DNA of 63,846 nt, counting the filler, from Octopus bimaculoides (taxonomy: Eukaryota), in assembly GCF_001194135.2 (NCBI RefSeq). It is 4 parts of 4 records of this genome, joined end to end, with 100 filler letters (N's around TTAATTAATTAA, not from the genome) between each part and the next. Parts side by side here need not be neighbours in the genome. Positions count along the whole stretch, not along the records: positions 1 to 18,816 come from NC_068991.1; positions 18,917 to 37,405 come from NC_068994.1; positions 37,506 to 61,762 come from NC_068988.1; 1 more part is not named here. The stretch is one strand, 5' to 3'. A program made the position numbers and the translations under genes. The notes below the pieces were generated by a model. It ran no database searches, was not told the origin of the DNA, and saw nothing but the letters and a program-made list of their open reading frames with translations. The stretch's first letter is position 1, and each line of letters begins with the position of its first letter. This document shows, in pieces, positions 2,310-54,924 of the stretch.

Positions 2310-2357
2310 GTCTCTGATGAAGGGATATATAAAATATTCCGGAAACAGCTGTAAGAC
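2310..2357 (+). ncRNA. Minimal type I hammerhead ribozyme motif in a Penelope pLTR-like segment (about 2240-2440)
   Basis: Stem I GTCT/AGAC; core CTGATGA at 2314-2320; stem II GGGATAT/ATATTCC; GAAA; palindromic ACAGCTGT; cleavage triplet GTA. The segment ends in (TA)n. Confidence 0.8.
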
Positions 2358-2495
2358 ATTTCTTTATATATGTTCCGAAAACAATTTACAGCTTTGGATT
2401 TTTTCATCTCATTCTGTCAATTTATATATATATATATATATAATTAGAGGATATGTTAACTTCGTGAAGGGATAACTGTTTTAATTGTTTAACTG

Positions 2496-2880
2496 TTTAA
2501 CTTGTTTCAGTCATTTGACTGTGGCCATGCTGGAGCACCGCCTTTAGTCGAGCAAATCGACCCAAGGACTTATTCTTTGTATGCCTAGTACTTATTCTAT
2601 CGGTCTCTTTAGCCGAACCGCTAAGTGACGAGGACATAAACACACCACCATCGGTTGTCAAGCAATGCTAGGGGGGATAAACACAGACACACAAACACAC
2701 ACACATACATATATACGACGGGATTCTTTCAGTTTCCGCCTACCAAATCTACTCACAAAGCTTTGGTCGGCCTGAGGCTATAGTAGAAGACACTTGCCCA
2801 AGATGCCACGCAGTGGGACTGAACCCGGAACCATGTGGTTGGTTAGCAAGCTACTTACCACATAGCCACTCCTGCCTGCG
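2496..2880 (-). mobile_element. tRNA-derived SINE, family A (internal microsatellite, CR1-type tail), near full length
   Basis: Reverse complement of the head GGAGTGGCT..TGGTAAGTAGCTTGC..GGTTCAGTCCCACTG and the tail GGTGCTCCAGCATGGCCACAGTCAAATGACTGAAACAAG; matches the copy at 41662. Confidence 0.9.
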
Positions 2881-2885
2881 CCTAT

Positions 2886-2924
<39 letters not shown>

Positions 2925-2927
<3 letters not shown>

Positions 2928-3155
2928 TGTGTGTCTGTGTTTGTCCCCACCCCACCCCAACATCACTTGACAACCGATGCAGGTGTGTTTACGTCCCCGT
3001 AACTTAGCGGTTCGGCAAAAGGAGACCGATAGAATAAGTGCTAGGCATACAAAGAATAAGTCCTGCGGTCGATTTGCTCGACTAAAGGTGGTGCTCCAGC
3101 ATGGCCACAGTCAAATAACTGAAACAAGTAAAAGAGTAAAAGAGAGAAAGAGTAA
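2925..3155 (+). mobile_element. SINE family A, 3' half
   Basis: AACTTAGCGGTTCGGCAAAAGGAGACCGATAGAATAAG through GAAACAAGTAAAAGAGTAAAAGAG. Confidence 0.9.
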
Positions 3156-4089
3156 ATAAACAAACAACTAAATGAATACATAAATAAATAAATGAAAGCA
3201 ACCATTTTTCATTCTGTTTTATTTTGTCTTTTATCTCACTTTTCGTTTTCTGTTGCAAAAAATCTGCAAAGACTTTGTATAACTTCGACCGTTTTGGTCA
3301 AGCAACTACATTTACCCTTTAGAGATTCTTTCAGTCATGTCTAGTATTAGCAATCCTATTAGCCAACGGTCTGTTCTATCTCTATATTGACCACACATAT
3401 ACGACTTACAGCCGCCATTTTATGCCTCACTACATACATTTAGTTGTCCCTTGTTAAGATCACTTGATCCTGAACAGCCACGGAAAATCATTCCAATTTT
3501 TCATTTAAGCCAATCATTTTCTCCCCATCGATTCACTTCCTTTTTATTCCTGTTTGTTTTTCATTTTTTCTTCAGTGTTTTTCTAACAAGAAACGTGCAG
3601 ATGTTTAATACTTCATTCTGTGTGCAAAGCATGCAGCTCGCTGCAGTTTTTCTTACAATTCTTCACATAAAGACATAAATCTTTTGACTTTTTATTCTAT
3701 TGGTATTCTACTTTTGTCTGTTTGGTGTGAGAGTGGCGTTATTGTGTTCCTAATTTGTAGTCTGGCTTTTATTAGTGTTCCTCGGCCCCTAATTATACTT
3801 GCAACGTCAGGACGTCTTATCTTGTTTATTTCTGTGGATTATCCTCCCTCTCTCTGTCTCTCTCTCGCTCTCTTTTGTTTAAGTACGCCTTTGTTTCTTT
3901 ATGGTATACTAAATGATGCCCGGCCGTACTACGATTAACTTTTGCAGATCTGTTGTCTTTGAAGTGATTCGTCCAGTGGGATTGCTTGAATCTCAACTTG
4001 TGTAGGGTCAGTGGTTCTGTCTCAGCGAGATCATCAGATGCGGTGACCGACTTGATCCTTCGATGGCCACACTCTGTTCTTGGTCTTAC

Positions 4090-4770
4090 TATTGCTGCAG
4101 TTACTGTTGTTATCATTGTTNNNNNNNNNNNNNNNNNNNNNNNNNNNNNNNNNNNNNNNNNNNNNNNNNNNNNNNNNNNNNNNNNNNNNNNNNNNNNNNN
4201 NNNNNNNNNNNNNNNNNNNNNNNNNNNNNNNNNNNNNNNNNNNNNNNNNNNNNNNNNNNNNNNNNNNNNNNNNNNNNNNNNNNNNNNNNNNNNNNNNNNN
4301 NNNNNNNNNNNNNNNNNNNNNNNNNNNNNNNNNNNNNNNNNNNNNNNNNNNNNNNNNNNNNNNNNNNNNNNNNNNNNNNNNNNNNNNNNNNNNNNNNNNN
4401 NNNNNNNNNNNNNNNNNNNNNNNNNNNNNNNNNNNNNNNNNNNNNNNNNNNNNNNNNNNNNNNNNNNNNNNNNNNNNNNNNNNNNNNNNNNNNNNNNNNN
4501 NNNNNNNNNNNNNNNNNNNNNNNNNNNNNNNNNNGTGAGTGATGTTGATGGTGATAGTGGTGGTGGTGGTGGTGGTGGTGGTAGTGGTGGTGGTGGTGGT
4601 GGTGTTAGCGTTGTTGCGGTTGTCAACATTGCTGTCGTTCTGGCTACTGTTGCTATCGATGTTGTTGCTGTAGTTGTTGCTGTTGTCGTTGATTTTGCTG
4701 CAGTTGCTGTTATTGTTGTTCCTGTTGCTGTTGTTATGGTTGTTGTTGTTATTTGATGTTTTTGATGTTG
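4090..4770. repeat. Degenerate (GTT/GGT)n trinucleotide tract spanning an N-gap
   Basis: Direct reading; it produces the poly-T/P/V/G ORFs. Confidence 0.9.
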
Positions 4771-4879
4771 TTGCCGTTTTAGCCGAGCATCAGCAGAGAT
4801 CGATGAAACACACAACAAAAGTCGTTCCAGCAATGACCATCACGTATACTCTGCATGTAAAACAGTCTAGTAAGGTGAA

Positions 4880-52301: not shown

Positions 52302-52404
52302 GTTTTGTGATGTTTTTGCAGCTTCATTAATAAAGCATATTACTCTACCTCTAGTTTTGAGTACTATTTTTTACCACCTTGTTTCACATTTATATGCTTA
52401 CTCT

Positions 52405-52442
<38 letters not shown>

Positions 52443-52602
52443 AGTTGTATACTGCCAACTTAACGTGACAGTCCCAATAAGGGAATAAACTACTGCTATT
52501 TAGCCATACGAAGCTGGACCGCTTCCTGTTGGCCTTGACACATTTCCTGTGTCCTTATGTTTGCGAGGGGGAGACAAACTCCTCCACCCAGCCTAGCCTG
52601 CA

Positions 52603-52645
52603 TTCAGGGACATGTTTCTGAGTCTTTGCTCGTCATCAGCCTGAA
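52603..52645 (-). ncRNA. Minimal type I hammerhead, canonical core
   Basis: The reverse strand reads TTCAGG-CTGATGA-C GAG CAAAGA CTC A-GAAA-CATG-TC-CCTGAA: 6-bp stem I, palindrome ACATGT, GUC triplet. Confidence 0.82.
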
Positions 52646-52959
52646 GTAGCATGACTGGCTGTTTGAAAAAGTCTGTTTACTTCTCGCAAAGATATACTAT
52701 TTCAGTGAAATACATTCACTGGTTATACATACACACACAGACACAGAGACAAAGAAACATATAAACAAATATGTAACTTCAGAAAGAAGTGGTCGTTAAA
52801 ACGAGTTGCTTCCTTCTCAAGCGGTATCAAATTCAGTCCCACTACATGTACATTGGGCATCTTTTACTGTAGTAGTGGACTGACCAAAATCTTGAGAGTG
52901 GATTTGGTAGACGGAAGGTGAAAGAAGCCAGTCATGTATATACTAATATATCTATTGCG

Positions 52960-53160
52960 AAAGGCGGGAAAATCGTCAGCTCGCTGGGCAAAATGTGTGG
53001 CACCCCTTTGTCCATCGTTACGTTTTGAGTTCAGGTCGACTTTGTGTTTCATCCTTTCAGAGTCGACAAAGTATGGACCAGTGAAGAACAGGGATCGATA
53101 TAATCGACTAACCCTCTTCCCTGAACTCGCAGGCCTTGTGCCAAAATTTGAAATTAATGT
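52960..53160 (+). mobile_element. SINE family E, diverged
   Basis: GGTCGACTTTGTGTTTCATCCTTTCAGAGTCGACAAAG...GGCCTTGTGCCAAAATTTGAAA. Confidence 0.75.
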
Positions 53161-54573
53161 GTTGTGTGGATGTGTGTGTGTGTGTGTGTGCGTGTGTGTG
53201 TGTCTGTGTCTGTGCGCGCGCGCATGTGAGTGCGCACGCACGCGGGCCTCTCTCCCAGTCTTTATAGCAAGCAATTGTTGTAGATACCTTCGAACAGTGT
53301 CACTCATTTACAATCTCGTACGAAAACACACCTGGTCTCAGCAAGTATTACTTTGTTGGAAAACAAATTCCGCCCGACACATGCAAGCAGCAAGAAGTGG
53401 TCGTTAAAACGAAGATGATATATGAATTTACATGTACATACACATACATATGTAGGAGCTTTTGTGTGTGCGTGTGTGTGTGTGGGAGGTGTATGCATTT
53501 ATGCATGCACACATGCATATATATAACGTATGTATATATCTATGCGTATGTATGCATGTATGTATGTGTGTGTGTGTGTGTGTGTGTATGTTTGTATGTA
53601 TGTATGTATGTATGTATGAAGCTGGCTCTGAGATCTTTAACCTGTTTTACAGTTGCAACTGGAATTATTTCCCCTGTATTGTTTACACTTCGCCATTCTC
53701 ACTTTATCTCGATGTGTCTTTCACGTTGTCCAGTATTTTCGTAAACAAATATAATTTGTTTGTAAACATTACATGTCACTTAGATTCCTAGTTGTAGGTC
53801 GTACAGTAGCTCACGTGGGTAGGTGTATTACTGAAACAAACATACTTTAAACGGACAAAGCTGACTTAGTACAAGCAATAATTCTATATATATCTGAATG
53901 TTAGTAAAGTGTATTTAACATATTTAATATAACCACAAGGGCTCCACCTCTGTGGTTGTTGTGTGGAAGGTACTAAAGATTAAACCGATCTGGTACCTGA
54001 ATAATTCTTTATTTTATCGACTCTGGGAGGATCAAAGGCAAAGTTGACCATGCAGAGAATTTTCTTTTCCTTTTGGTCCTGGAGTAAAGCGTTGTGTTCC
54101 AAGGCCCTCACAGACCGTTTCAGACCGTGAGATCGTCGTATTCGTGCCCTGTTGCTAAGGTGATAGAGATAATATGGTAGCCGATTTGCCTTTTCTTATC
54201 CGATGAAATACTCAGTTATGTGTAACGTTGTAACCTGGAGTTTAAAAGATTTGAGAAAGAGAGGGGGTGAAGAGTGGTTTCTTTGTAAATTTTATGGATG
54301 TTGGTAAAGCTGTCGAGCTTAGTGACAATAAAAGGGCTGTCCACTACCTTAGACAGAACAGCGAAGTCGATAATATGACAATATATATATATATATATAN
54401 NNNNNNNNNNNNNNNNNNNNNNNNNNNNNNNNNNNNNNNNNNNNNNNNNNNNNNNNNNNNNNNNNNNNNNNNNNNNNNNNNNNNNNNNNNNNNNNNNNNN
54501 NNNNNNNNNNNNNNNNNNNNNNNNNNNNNNNNNNNNNNNNNNNNNNNNNNNNNNNNNNNNNNNNNNNNNNNNN

Positions 54574-54773
54574 CATGCTAGCATGGGTTGGACGATTTGA
54601 CAGAGAACTGGTGAACCAGATGGCTACACCAGGCTCCAATCTGATTTGGCAGAGTTTCTACAGCTGGATGCCCTTCCTAACGCCAACCACTCCGAGAGTG
54701 TAGTGGGTGTTTTTACATACCACCGGCACGAAGGCCAGTCAGGCGGTACTGGCAACGGCCACGCTCAAAATGG
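54574..54773 (-). mobile_element. SINE-like family B, one module then cut by (TA)n
   Basis: CATGCTAGCATGGGTTGGACG...CTACAGCTGGATGCCCTTCCTAACGCCAACCAC. Confidence 0.88.
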
Positions 54774-54887
54774 TTTATATATATATATATATATATATAC
54801 AGTTCAAATCTGTAGAAAAAACAAAGACGAAGACAGGTGTAGGTACAAGCAAGTGTATTAGTTTGACGCTCGGAAAAAATGGAAAAG

Positions 54888-54924
54888 TCTTTTACGTTTC
54901 GAGCCTACGCTCCTCGACAGAAAG
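54888..54924 (-). ncRNA. Family C-related hammerhead in element about 54800-54970
   Basis: The reverse strand reads CTTT-CTGTCGA-G-GAGC GTAG GCTC-GAAA-CG-TA-AAAG. Confidence 0.65.

What the first reader, a model, noticed from the sequence alone, without database searches (positions are those of the whole stretch)
2310..54924. Window-wide: eleven hammerhead motifs from about five families, all in short (TA)n-associated elements
Seen: minimal type I hammerhead patterns at 2310(+), 27425(-), 29633(-), 29779(+), 35820(-), 38830(-), 47035(+), 49106(+), 52260(+), 52603(-) and 54888(-). All lie in short non-coding elements that abut (TA)n tracts, and no Penelope RT or GIY-YIG ORF is visible in the window. 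Most have a very short or palindromic helix III (ACGT, ACAGCTGT, ACATGT, ACTCGAGT). Established: Penelope-like element pseudo-LTRs and metazoan non-LTR retrozymes carry such minimal hammerheads, which cleave as dimers and can yield small circular RNAs. Inference: this genome hosts a large multi-family population of non-autonomous ribozyme retroelements associated with TA microsatellites.
Basis: partly seen in the sequence, partly recalled or inferred. Interest (0 to 1): 0.75.

Follow-up and report, generated by a model that had tools for sequence, protein, structure and literature searches.

The report
Penelope stumps with variant-core hammerheads
The eleven motifs are hammerhead-ribozyme-shaped tail stumps of Penelope-type jumping genes inserted in TA repeats, a known arrangement, but the two best-traced families keep altered catalytic cores across their sub-lineages, in one of them with the paired stems rebuilt, so the fold is likely still under selection; whether these variants cut RNA is untested.

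Summary
All eleven motifs are at the stated places and exceed chance, but only 2 of 11 have a canonical core with intact helices. Four carry U at core position 6; five are decayed. They are 5'-truncated 3' ends of Penelope-like elements (PLEs), not retrozymes. Elsewhere in the genome families A and B join Neptune-type GIY-YIG/RT ORFs and D joins a Hydra-type endonuclease. Their 3' ends are fixed on TA tracts, 5' ends are ragged, copies are solo or inverted. No sampled copy starts at the cleavage site, and RNA reads show no cleaved ends or circles. This layout is published, and this scan met it before in the same genome. The new part is the cores. Family A (over 7,000 exact copies) fixes A6U, while lineage changes fall at free positions 7, 17 and loop II. 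Family B keeps a base inserted after C3 across sister lineages in which 6 of 11 pairs changed on both sides. My searches did not find these in print, but the key paper (Lunse 2017) was unavailable. Cleavage is untested.

The parts
2310..2357 (+). Family D hammerhead: canonical CUGAUGA core, extra base on both sides of helix II, ACAGCUGU palindrome, predicted cut after 2353. Lies in a truncated Hydra-type PLE 3' end, about 2172-2422, ending on (TA)10
   Evidence: element limits read by eye
27425..27464 (-). Family B hammerhead-like motif: 8-nt core with a base inserted after C3, ACUCGAGU palindrome, one copy-specific helix I mismatch. Lies in a truncated Neptune-type PLE 3' end, about 27151-27528
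29633..29670 (-). Family C hammerhead, decayed in helices I and II; element about 29527-29680; head-to-head with the 29779 copy across a TA-rich spacer
29779..29816 (+). Family C hammerhead, G8A decayed; element about 29765-29856
29870..29927 (+).
35820..35856 (-). Family A (older subfamily, loop GUAG) motif with U6, G7 and lost G12; element about 35732-35930
38830..38866 (-). Family A (young) U6 motif, helices intact; element about 38738-38924
47035..47071 (+). Family A (young) U6 motif, predicted cut after 47066; element about 46966-47163, running into an assembly gap
49106..49142 (+). Family A (young) U6 motif, predicted cut after 49137; element about 49071-49232, ending on (TA)15
52260..52301 (+). 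Family C motif broken by an internal duplication; element to about 52407, tail-to-tail with family E on one (TA)15 tract at 52409-52438
52603..52645 (-). Family E hammerhead: canonical core, 6-bp helix I, ACAUGU palindrome, extra base on both sides of helix II; element about 52440-52725; parent ORF not found
54888..54924 (-). Family A (older subfamily) U6 motif with C7 and A17, helices intact; element about 54800-54975, ending on (TA)12

Best explanation
The eleven motifs lie in 5'-truncated 3' ends of endonuclease-bearing Penelope-like retroelements (shown for families A, B and D, likely for C and E), probably written into (TA)n tracts by target-primed reverse transcription of uncut RNA, and their hammerhead fold is likely still under selection even where the catalytic core is altered. 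Shown: family A and B motifs sit 0.3-1.2 kb after the stop of Neptune-type ORFs; D sits after a Hydra-type endonuclease; 3' ends are fixed on TA; 5' ends are ragged or flip into an inverted copy; no sampled copy starts at the cut site. Inferred from Frangieh 2024: the GIY-YIG domain nicks AT-rich DNA, the RT primes at one or two fixed internal sites downstream of the motif, copies through the intact motif and usually stops early. Inferred and untested: the motif acts at another step, as a slow dimer- and protein-gated ribozyme that trims tandem PLE transcripts. The A6U and C3-insertion cores would be weakened, conditional versions of it rather than dead relics (about even odds that they cut at all).
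For: ORF link, A: 6 of 30 GIY-YIG loci carry the A motif downstream on the same strand, one being the deleted seed copy, and most others run into gaps. L142 joins the RT-thumb region to the motif across a gap, and L144 holds an open 311-aa PLE RT, 41% identical to P0030. ORF link, B: 3 of 30 loci, L189 without a gap; 8 more carry sister motif B'. ORF link, D: 1 of 30 loci (L316) has an EN with C-x-C-x5-C linker, YIG, no CCHH and CxH, and part of its UTR recurs in L310. Polarity. No 5' end at the cut site in 52 of 52 A copies examined (nearest 3 and 5 nt away; the other 48 of 100 listed carry the whole motif by coordinate match) and in 25 of 25 ungapped B copies of 30. Selection, B vs B': 11 pairs, 6 changed on both sides, 96.8% of cells paired vs 28-47% when slid; both lineages keep the 8-nt core, so the changes postdate the insertion. 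Selection, A: in 45 copies not chosen on the core, position 6 is U 43, C 1, A 0 of 44 called; position 7 takes all four bases; position 17 is U 21, C 15, A 7, never G. Older subfamilies have position 6 U in 95 of 100 listed and position 7 G41/U33/C14/A12 (counted by hand). One unrelated contig holds a U6 motif with a different 6-bp helix I and loop II (L366). Two-strand folding gives the double hammerhead as minimum-energy form for B, B' and D.
Against: No cleavage is seen in RNA: three raw-read runs of one study give about 170-240 reads per million on family A in both orientations, 55-59% running on into other flanks, with no end pile-up or back-splice at the site. The double-hammerhead fold is not favoured for family A (-9.5 kcal/mol vs -22.7 minimum) and was not the minimum for C or E. 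B/B' covariation is one lineage contrast, and two of five shuffle measures (pairs changed on both sides, pair types) did not exceed the control. Family A helices show no covariation, only invariance. Published A6C and near-C3 insertions sharply reduce cleavage in Mg2+ (PMC7151607, PMC3088659). No ORF was tied to E; for C only an inverted Hydra-type EN piece at one of 30 loci. No full-length copy was seen and no RT tree was built.
Confidence: 0.8

Rival explanations
1. PLE stumps as above, but the altered motifs no longer cut: the fold is kept as a structural signal (protein binding, RNA dimerisation, RT pausing) or is drifting after the ribozyme became dispensable.
For: Catalytic mutants do not affect insertion in vitro and uncut RNA is the main template (PMC11167929). 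Naiads thrive without canonical motifs (PMC8557442). No cut ends in DNA or RNA here. A6C cuts more than 10,000-fold slower in 0.3 mM Mg2+ than in Mn2+ in one tested ribozyme.
Against: GAAA, G5, G8-A9 and the U-H triplet stay fixed while free positions change. Pure drift does not explain 6 two-sided changes with no pair lost in B/B'.
Confidence: 0.4
2. The short copies are self-propagating non-autonomous units: short RNAs starting just 5' of the motif from an internal promoter or splice site, mobilised in trans by the PLE protein.
For: In family B, 16 of 18 copies that pass the motif stop 8-29 nt upstream of C3, while only 3 stop in the roughly 60 nt downstream. Short copies outnumber ORF copies about 10- to 100-fold. 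Penelope has an internal promoter (PMC2377424, abstract).
Against: Family A 5' ends are spread from 69 nt below to over 200 nt above C3, and D copies mostly extend more than 120 nt. Short and long B copies share the same variants by eye. No RNA start was mapped for B.
Confidence: 0.25
3. One reading: metazoan non-LTR retrozymes that self-cleave and circularise.
For: Type I motifs with palindromic helix III; retrozymes are thought to derive from PLE pLTRs (bioRxiv 10.64898/2026.07.22.740005); a few head-to-tail pairs exist (1 same-strand pair within 1 kb among 100 listed places, 2).
Against: No tandem array bears a motif in the window. Copies are solo or inverted, have ragged 5' ends and join PLE ORFs. 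No circular joint at the cut site.
Confidence: 0.04
4. Chance matches in AT-rich repetitive DNA.
For: A descriptor with one core mismatch gives up to 4 hits in shuffles; five of eleven copies are decayed.
Against: Thousands of exact genomic copies with reversed-pattern controls at 0; covariation; position at PLE 3' ends.
Confidence: 0.01

Closest known systems
Minimal hammerheads of metazoan PLEs (Cervera and de la Pena 2014, PMC4209133; read: main text parts 1-2 of 4, supplementary file 2 part 2 and search passages; file 1 not searchable)
   Same: Type I, short helix I, extra base between 9 and 10.1, G10.1-C11.1 in family A, palindromic helix III; mostly single motifs from truncated PLEs; opposite-strand pairs 100-700 bp apart.
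   Different: Their consensus is CUGANGAH and the core change named in the text is U3-A8. No U6 or C3-insertion core appears in the alignment rows I saw, but their descriptor could not have returned them.
Neptune-clade EN+ PLEs (Craig et al. 2021, PMC8557442; read: passages, section 11, supplement part 2 and search rows)
   Same: RT then C-terminal GIY-YIG with CX2-5CxxC linker and CCHH; TA targets; inverted 5' copies and tails. The family A endonuclease resembles the Neptune1_Ap row of Fig. S7 by eye.
   Different: These two families were not found in that supplement (it lists Naiad, Chlamys and Hydra families). The A parent has a pyrimidine-rich 3' UTR of about 1 kb. Nematis is not excluded by a tree.
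Hydra-clade PLEs and their hammerheads (PMC8557442, File S2)
   Same: Family D's parent has the CxCX5C linker, no CCHH and CxH. Family C's motif has the layout of Hydra-2_aMil and Hydra-2_aJap (helix III ACUC-N-GAGU). An extra base on both sides of helix II (D, E) is common in File S2.
   Different: The listed Hydra-1_oBim motif differs from C, D and E. A large D subfamily carries C4 instead of U4 (18 of 26 called).
Protein-assisted hammerhead of Poseidon PAc (Frangieh et al. 2024, PMC11167929; read: parts 1-2 of 4)
   Same: Uncut RNA is the insertion template, no RNA-seq ends at the cut site, AT-rich targets, two RT start sites giving a tail. All match the genomic pattern here.
   Different: [quoted passage not shown]
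Natural core variants A6C and 2a/2b insertions (Perreault 2011, PMC3088659; Naghdi 2020, PMC7151607; passages read)
   Same: Change at position 6 and insertions next to C3, with low or ion-dependent activity.
   Different: Those are single phage or saltern sequences; here U6 and a one-base insertion are the fixed state of animal retroelement lineages with thousands of copies.
Metazoan non-LTR retrozymes (Cervera 2020, PMC7229834, part 1 of 6 read; Li 2026, bioRxiv 10.64898/2026.07.22.740005, parts 1-2 of 5 read, supplements closed)
   Same: Type I motif in short non-coding repeats of PLE origin.
   Different: Retrozymes are tandem 170-400-nt units with abundant linear and circular RNAs; neither was seen here.

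Membership tests
PLE minimal hammerhead | Type I topology with helices I and II closing | tested here: met
   6 of 11 window copies intact; family consensuses pair
PLE minimal hammerhead | Core CUGANGA and GAAA | tested here: not met
   Met for E (26 of 30), C and one D clade. Not met for A (U6 43 of 44), B (8-nt core) and the larger D group (C4)
PLE minimal hammerhead | Palindromic 15.2-16.2 or loop III allowing a dimer | tested here: met
   Palindromes in A, B, B', D, E; kept through two two-sided changes in B/B'; double hammerhead is the predicted minimum for B, B', D but not A, C, E
PLE minimal hammerhead | NUH cleavage triplet | tested here: met
   Family A position 17: U21, C15, A7, G0 of 43 called
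PLE minimal hammerhead | Located in the pLTR or 3' end of a PLE | tested here: met
   A, B, D; C suggestive; E not found
PLE minimal hammerhead | Self-cleavage as a dimer | not testable with these tools
   RNA-seq on family A shows no cut ends, as also reported for PAc, which does cut with its protein
Neptune-type EN+ PLE (parents of A and B) | RT followed by C-terminal GIY-YIG in one ORF | tested here: met
   Overlapping truncated copies L144 and L143 for A, L200 and L192 for B; Pfam RVT_1 6.5e-5 (below cut-off), GIY-YIG 7.7e-7; no full-length copy seen
Neptune-type EN+ PLE (parents of A and B) | CX2-5CxxC linker and CCHH in the endonuclease | tested here: met
   C-x4-C-x2-C in both, CxxC before YIG/YVG plus two H
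Neptune-type EN+ PLE (parents of A and B) | RT phylogeny with Neptune rather than Nematis | not tested
   No reference sequences on hand; resemblance to Neptune1_Ap by eye only
Neptune-type EN+ PLE (parents of A and B) | (TA)n targets, inverted or tandem structures, optional tail | tested here: met
   B has two 3' ends about 60 nt apart
Hydra-clade PLE (parent of D, probably C) | CxCX5C linker, no CCHH, C-terminal CxH | tested here: met
   L316, one decayed copy of 30 loci; 34% similar EN piece inverted beside C in L164
Hydra-clade PLE (parent of D, probably C) | Hydra RT motifs (RWK, DKT) | not tested
   No RT-bearing D or C copy recovered
Non-LTR retrozyme | Tandem 170-400-nt units each with a hammerhead | tested here: not met
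Non-LTR retrozyme | Non-coding, not a piece of an ORF-bearing element | tested here: not met
   A, B, D continuous with ORFs
Non-LTR retrozyme | Abundant unit-length linear and circular RNA | tested here: inconclusive
   None seen for family A in three cDNA libraries of one study; such libraries may lose small circles; B-E not examined

The most novel reading that the evidence does not exclude
PLE lineages in this genome have evolved working hammerheads with rewritten catalytic cores (U6 in family A, one base inserted after C3 in family B, C4 in most of D), tuned down so that they cut only as dimers on the PLE protein or under particular ions. U6 also occurs in another organism. Standard CUGANGA descriptors would then miss the most abundant ribozyme families of such genomes, and some PLEs reported to lack hammerheads may carry them.
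Probability: 0.3. Interest if true: 0.7.

Novelty: new variant of a known kind. Interest (0 to 1): 0.42.

Why it matters
What hammerheads do for Penelope-like elements is an open question: they are nearly universal in canonical PLEs, weak in vitro and dispensable for insertion in the one reconstituted system. This genome offers natural experiments. Lineages changed supposedly invariant core positions and then kept spreading to thousands of copies while preserving the fold. Sister pairs (B vs B', U4 vs C4 clades of D, U6 family A vs canonical E) can be assayed side by side to ask whether selection acts on catalysis or on shape. The basic observation, hammerhead-bearing PLE stumps in TA repeats, is ordinary.

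Tried and rejected
Rfam scan: only microsatellite-driven matches among the 150 of 208 rows shown; no hammerhead. A DNA search of G000 with a family A copy returned nothing because common words are skipped; pattern searches replaced it. The idea that family B's motif overlaps the ORF end was rejected: the stop lies about 325 nt upstream. 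The idea that D's canonical U4 copies are CpG-decay products was rejected: they form one clade with a linked diagnostic base (8 of 8 vs 1 of 9, Fisher p=4e-4). The pile-up at -37 for family B is an alignment artefact of the AT tract and was replaced. The weak ORF hit beside D in L317 is a neighbouring family A fragment. No ORF was found for E in 30 loci. No RNA holder was listed by the run index, which is no evidence either way. RNA data for family B were not obtained. Lunse, Weinberg and Breaker 2017 (about 150,000 PLE-associated variants, figure recalled) is not held; I saw only its title and a review passage, and it may already list these cores. Searches that did not show U6, C3-insertion or C4 cores in PLEs; supplements of the 2026 preprint and file 1 of PMC4209133 could not be seen. 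Look-ups of earlier scan notes by the A and B sequences gave nothing.

Full report
Setting. The window is a pack of four AT-rich, gapped stretches of a 2.34-Gb animal genome. That it is an octopus is my recall of its repeat types, echoed by earlier scan notes; it was not tested.

1. The observation. All eleven motifs are present at the stated places and strands. A type I descriptor finds 2 sites with the strict core, 6 with position 6 free and 7 with one mismatch, against shuffle means of 0.01-0.03, 0.11 and about 0.65. The motifs fall into five families: A (5 copies), B (1), C (3), D (1), E (1). Only D at 2310 and E at 52603 have a canonical core with intact helices. Four A copies are intact apart from U at position 6. 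The other five copies are decayed. No PLE ORF lies in the window. The window is about ten times richer in these families than 40 blind 10-kb blocks (22 vs 2.3 fragments per 100 kb); TA tracts are only slightly denser (9.2 vs 7.6 per 10 kb).

2. Copy number and anatomy. Pattern counts in the genome, each with a reversed control of 0: A young 4,277 exact, A older 2,756 exact, B 1,033 within one mismatch, C 106 within one, D 3,813 within one, E 1,255 within two. In 30 loci per search the picture repeats: a fixed 3' end about 70-300 nt past the motif, followed by TA repeats (42 of 45 scorable A copies, 15 of 20 scorable E copies, background 3.4%); a ragged 5' end; and frequent inverted copies at the 5' junction. 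Same-strand neighbours within 1 kb are rare (1 pair among 100 listed, 2). This is the published layout of truncated PLEs (PMC4209133; PMC8557442).

3. The parents. A deleted family A copy carried a GIY-YIG coding piece. That piece has 75 genomic matches. Of 30 such loci, 6 carry the A motif downstream on the same strand, one being the seed, and most others run into gaps. Upstream lie a C-x4-CxxC linker and, in L144, an open 311-aa RT 41% identical to an 891-aa RT+GIY-YIG protein. Family B has a second such parent (127 matches); 3 of 30 loci reach the B motif, L189 without a gap, about 325 nt after the stop. The two proteins are 33% identical over 141 aa. Both have the linker and CCHH of Neptune/Nematis; A's endonuclease resembles Neptune1_Ap by eye. 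Family D joins a Hydra-type endonuclease in 1 of 30 loci. Family C has an inverted Hydra-type piece at one locus and the motif layout of Hydra-2_aMil. No parent was found for E.

4. Is the RNA cut? If cut RNA were the template, copies would start at the cut site. Of 100 A places picked by their 3' end, I examined 52 and none starts there; the other 48 carry the whole motif by coordinate match. None of 25 ungapped B copies of 30 starts there either. Three raw-read RNA runs of one study hold family A at about 170-240 reads per million, in both orientations, mostly running on into other flanks, with no pile-up of ends and no back-splice at the site. This fits passive read-through. It is a weak test, and the same blank was reported for PAc, whose ribozyme does cut when its protein is present and is not needed for insertion (PMC11167929).

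5. The cores. Family A: position 6 is U in 98 of 100 listed young copies, 95 of 100 older ones and 43 of 44 called copies not chosen on the core. A6 appears once in these lists. Lineage-level change falls at position 7 (all four bases), position 17 (U, C, A, never G), loop II and the bulge, the positions a hammerhead leaves free. The helices are invariant, so there is no covariation in A, and the double-hammerhead fold is not predicted to be favoured. One contig of another organism holds a U6 motif with a different 6-bp helix I and loop II and unrelated flanks. Family B: the core has eight bases, C-N-UGANGA. Sister lineage B', found through the ORF and not through the motif (8 of 30 loci), keeps the extra base (U instead of A) while 6 of 11 pairs across all three helices changed on both sides, including the helix III palindrome; 96.8% of cells pair, against 28-47% for slid partners. 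This is one lineage contrast, and two of five shuffle measures do not exceed the control, but both lineages carry the insertion, so the compensations came after it. Two-strand folding gives the double hammerhead as the minimum for B, B' and D. Family D splits into a U4 clade, which includes the window copy, and a larger C4 group (8 vs 18 of 26 called). Family E is canonical in 26 of 30. Published A6C and near-C3 insertions weaken cleavage or shift its ion needs.

6. Mechanism. Shown: PLE 3' ends, fixed 3' junction on TA, uncut motif in inserted copies, conserved fold. Inferred from PAc: nicking of AT-rich DNA, internal RT initiation at one or two sites (B has two 3' ends about 60 nt apart), early stop, frequent inversion. 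Inferred and untested: the motif works at another step as a slow, dimer- and protein-gated ribozyme, with the variant cores as weakened forms. The main rival is a non-catalytic structural role or decay. An unexplained detail: 16 of 18 B copies that pass the motif stop 8-29 nt upstream of C3, which may mark a transcript start, a splice acceptor or an RT stop.

7. Novelty and verdict. Hammerhead-bearing PLE stumps in TA repeats are known, and this scan noted them before in the same genome. The retrozyme and circular-RNA reading is not supported. Lineage-fixed U6, C3-insertion and C4 cores with signs of continued selection were not found in nine paper searches, but Lunse 2017, the most likely prior source, could not be read. 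Verdict: new variant of a known kind, interest 0.42.

Noticed in passing
L366:301-329 (-): The only metagenome match to a U6 pattern: a minimal hammerhead with U6, a different 6-bp helix I and loop II, and flanks unrelated to this genome's families. Suggests U6 cores occur in other organisms.
   Followed up: partly
window 27465-27490 (-) and loci L031-L060, L276-L305: Family B short copies stop 8-29 nt upstream of C3, many exactly 24 nt up, right after an AG; may be a transcript start, splice acceptor or RT stop.
   Followed up: partly
window 52408-52438; L028, L036, L163, L317: Different PLE families share one TA tract or join head-to-head, so stumps of unrelated families cluster.
   Followed up: partly
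L002:930-1030: A repeat with GAAAC upstream of CUGAUGA, a permuted-hammerhead-like order; may be the Naiad motif of note e1-8806550.
   Followed up: no
L248:5150-5215 (+): A further canonical hammerhead with a long helix II in a blind block, not one of the five families.
   Followed up: no
L245:5345-6132 (-): An older relative of the family A ORF in a blind block; its 3' end falls in a gap.
   Followed up: partly
window 30677-34017 (-), 22690-24880 (-), 36670-37400 (-), 27600-28600: Broken LINE-type endonuclease/RT ORFs; the first looks RTE-like (label recalled, not tested).
   Followed up: no
window 5745-6170 (-) and 44595-45038: Fragments resembling mariner and pogo/Tigger transposases (labels recalled).
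   Followed up: no
window 18917-19285: 370-bp palindrome, 95% self-complementary, at the start of the second stretch.
   Followed up: no
window 21699-21854: Degenerate TTAGGG-type repeat next to a gap.
   Followed up: no
window 21955-22220 and 22692-22957: Exact 266-bp duplication beside small gaps, probably an assembly artefact.
   Followed up: no
window 25364-25574: 66-bp tandem repeat, 3.2 copies, part of a dispersed family.
   Followed up: no
window 2480-3166, 41663-42072, 60658-60964 and others: A very abundant SINE-like repeat of about 400 bp with a central TA tract, more than 15 fragments in the window.
   Followed up: no
   Followed up: no
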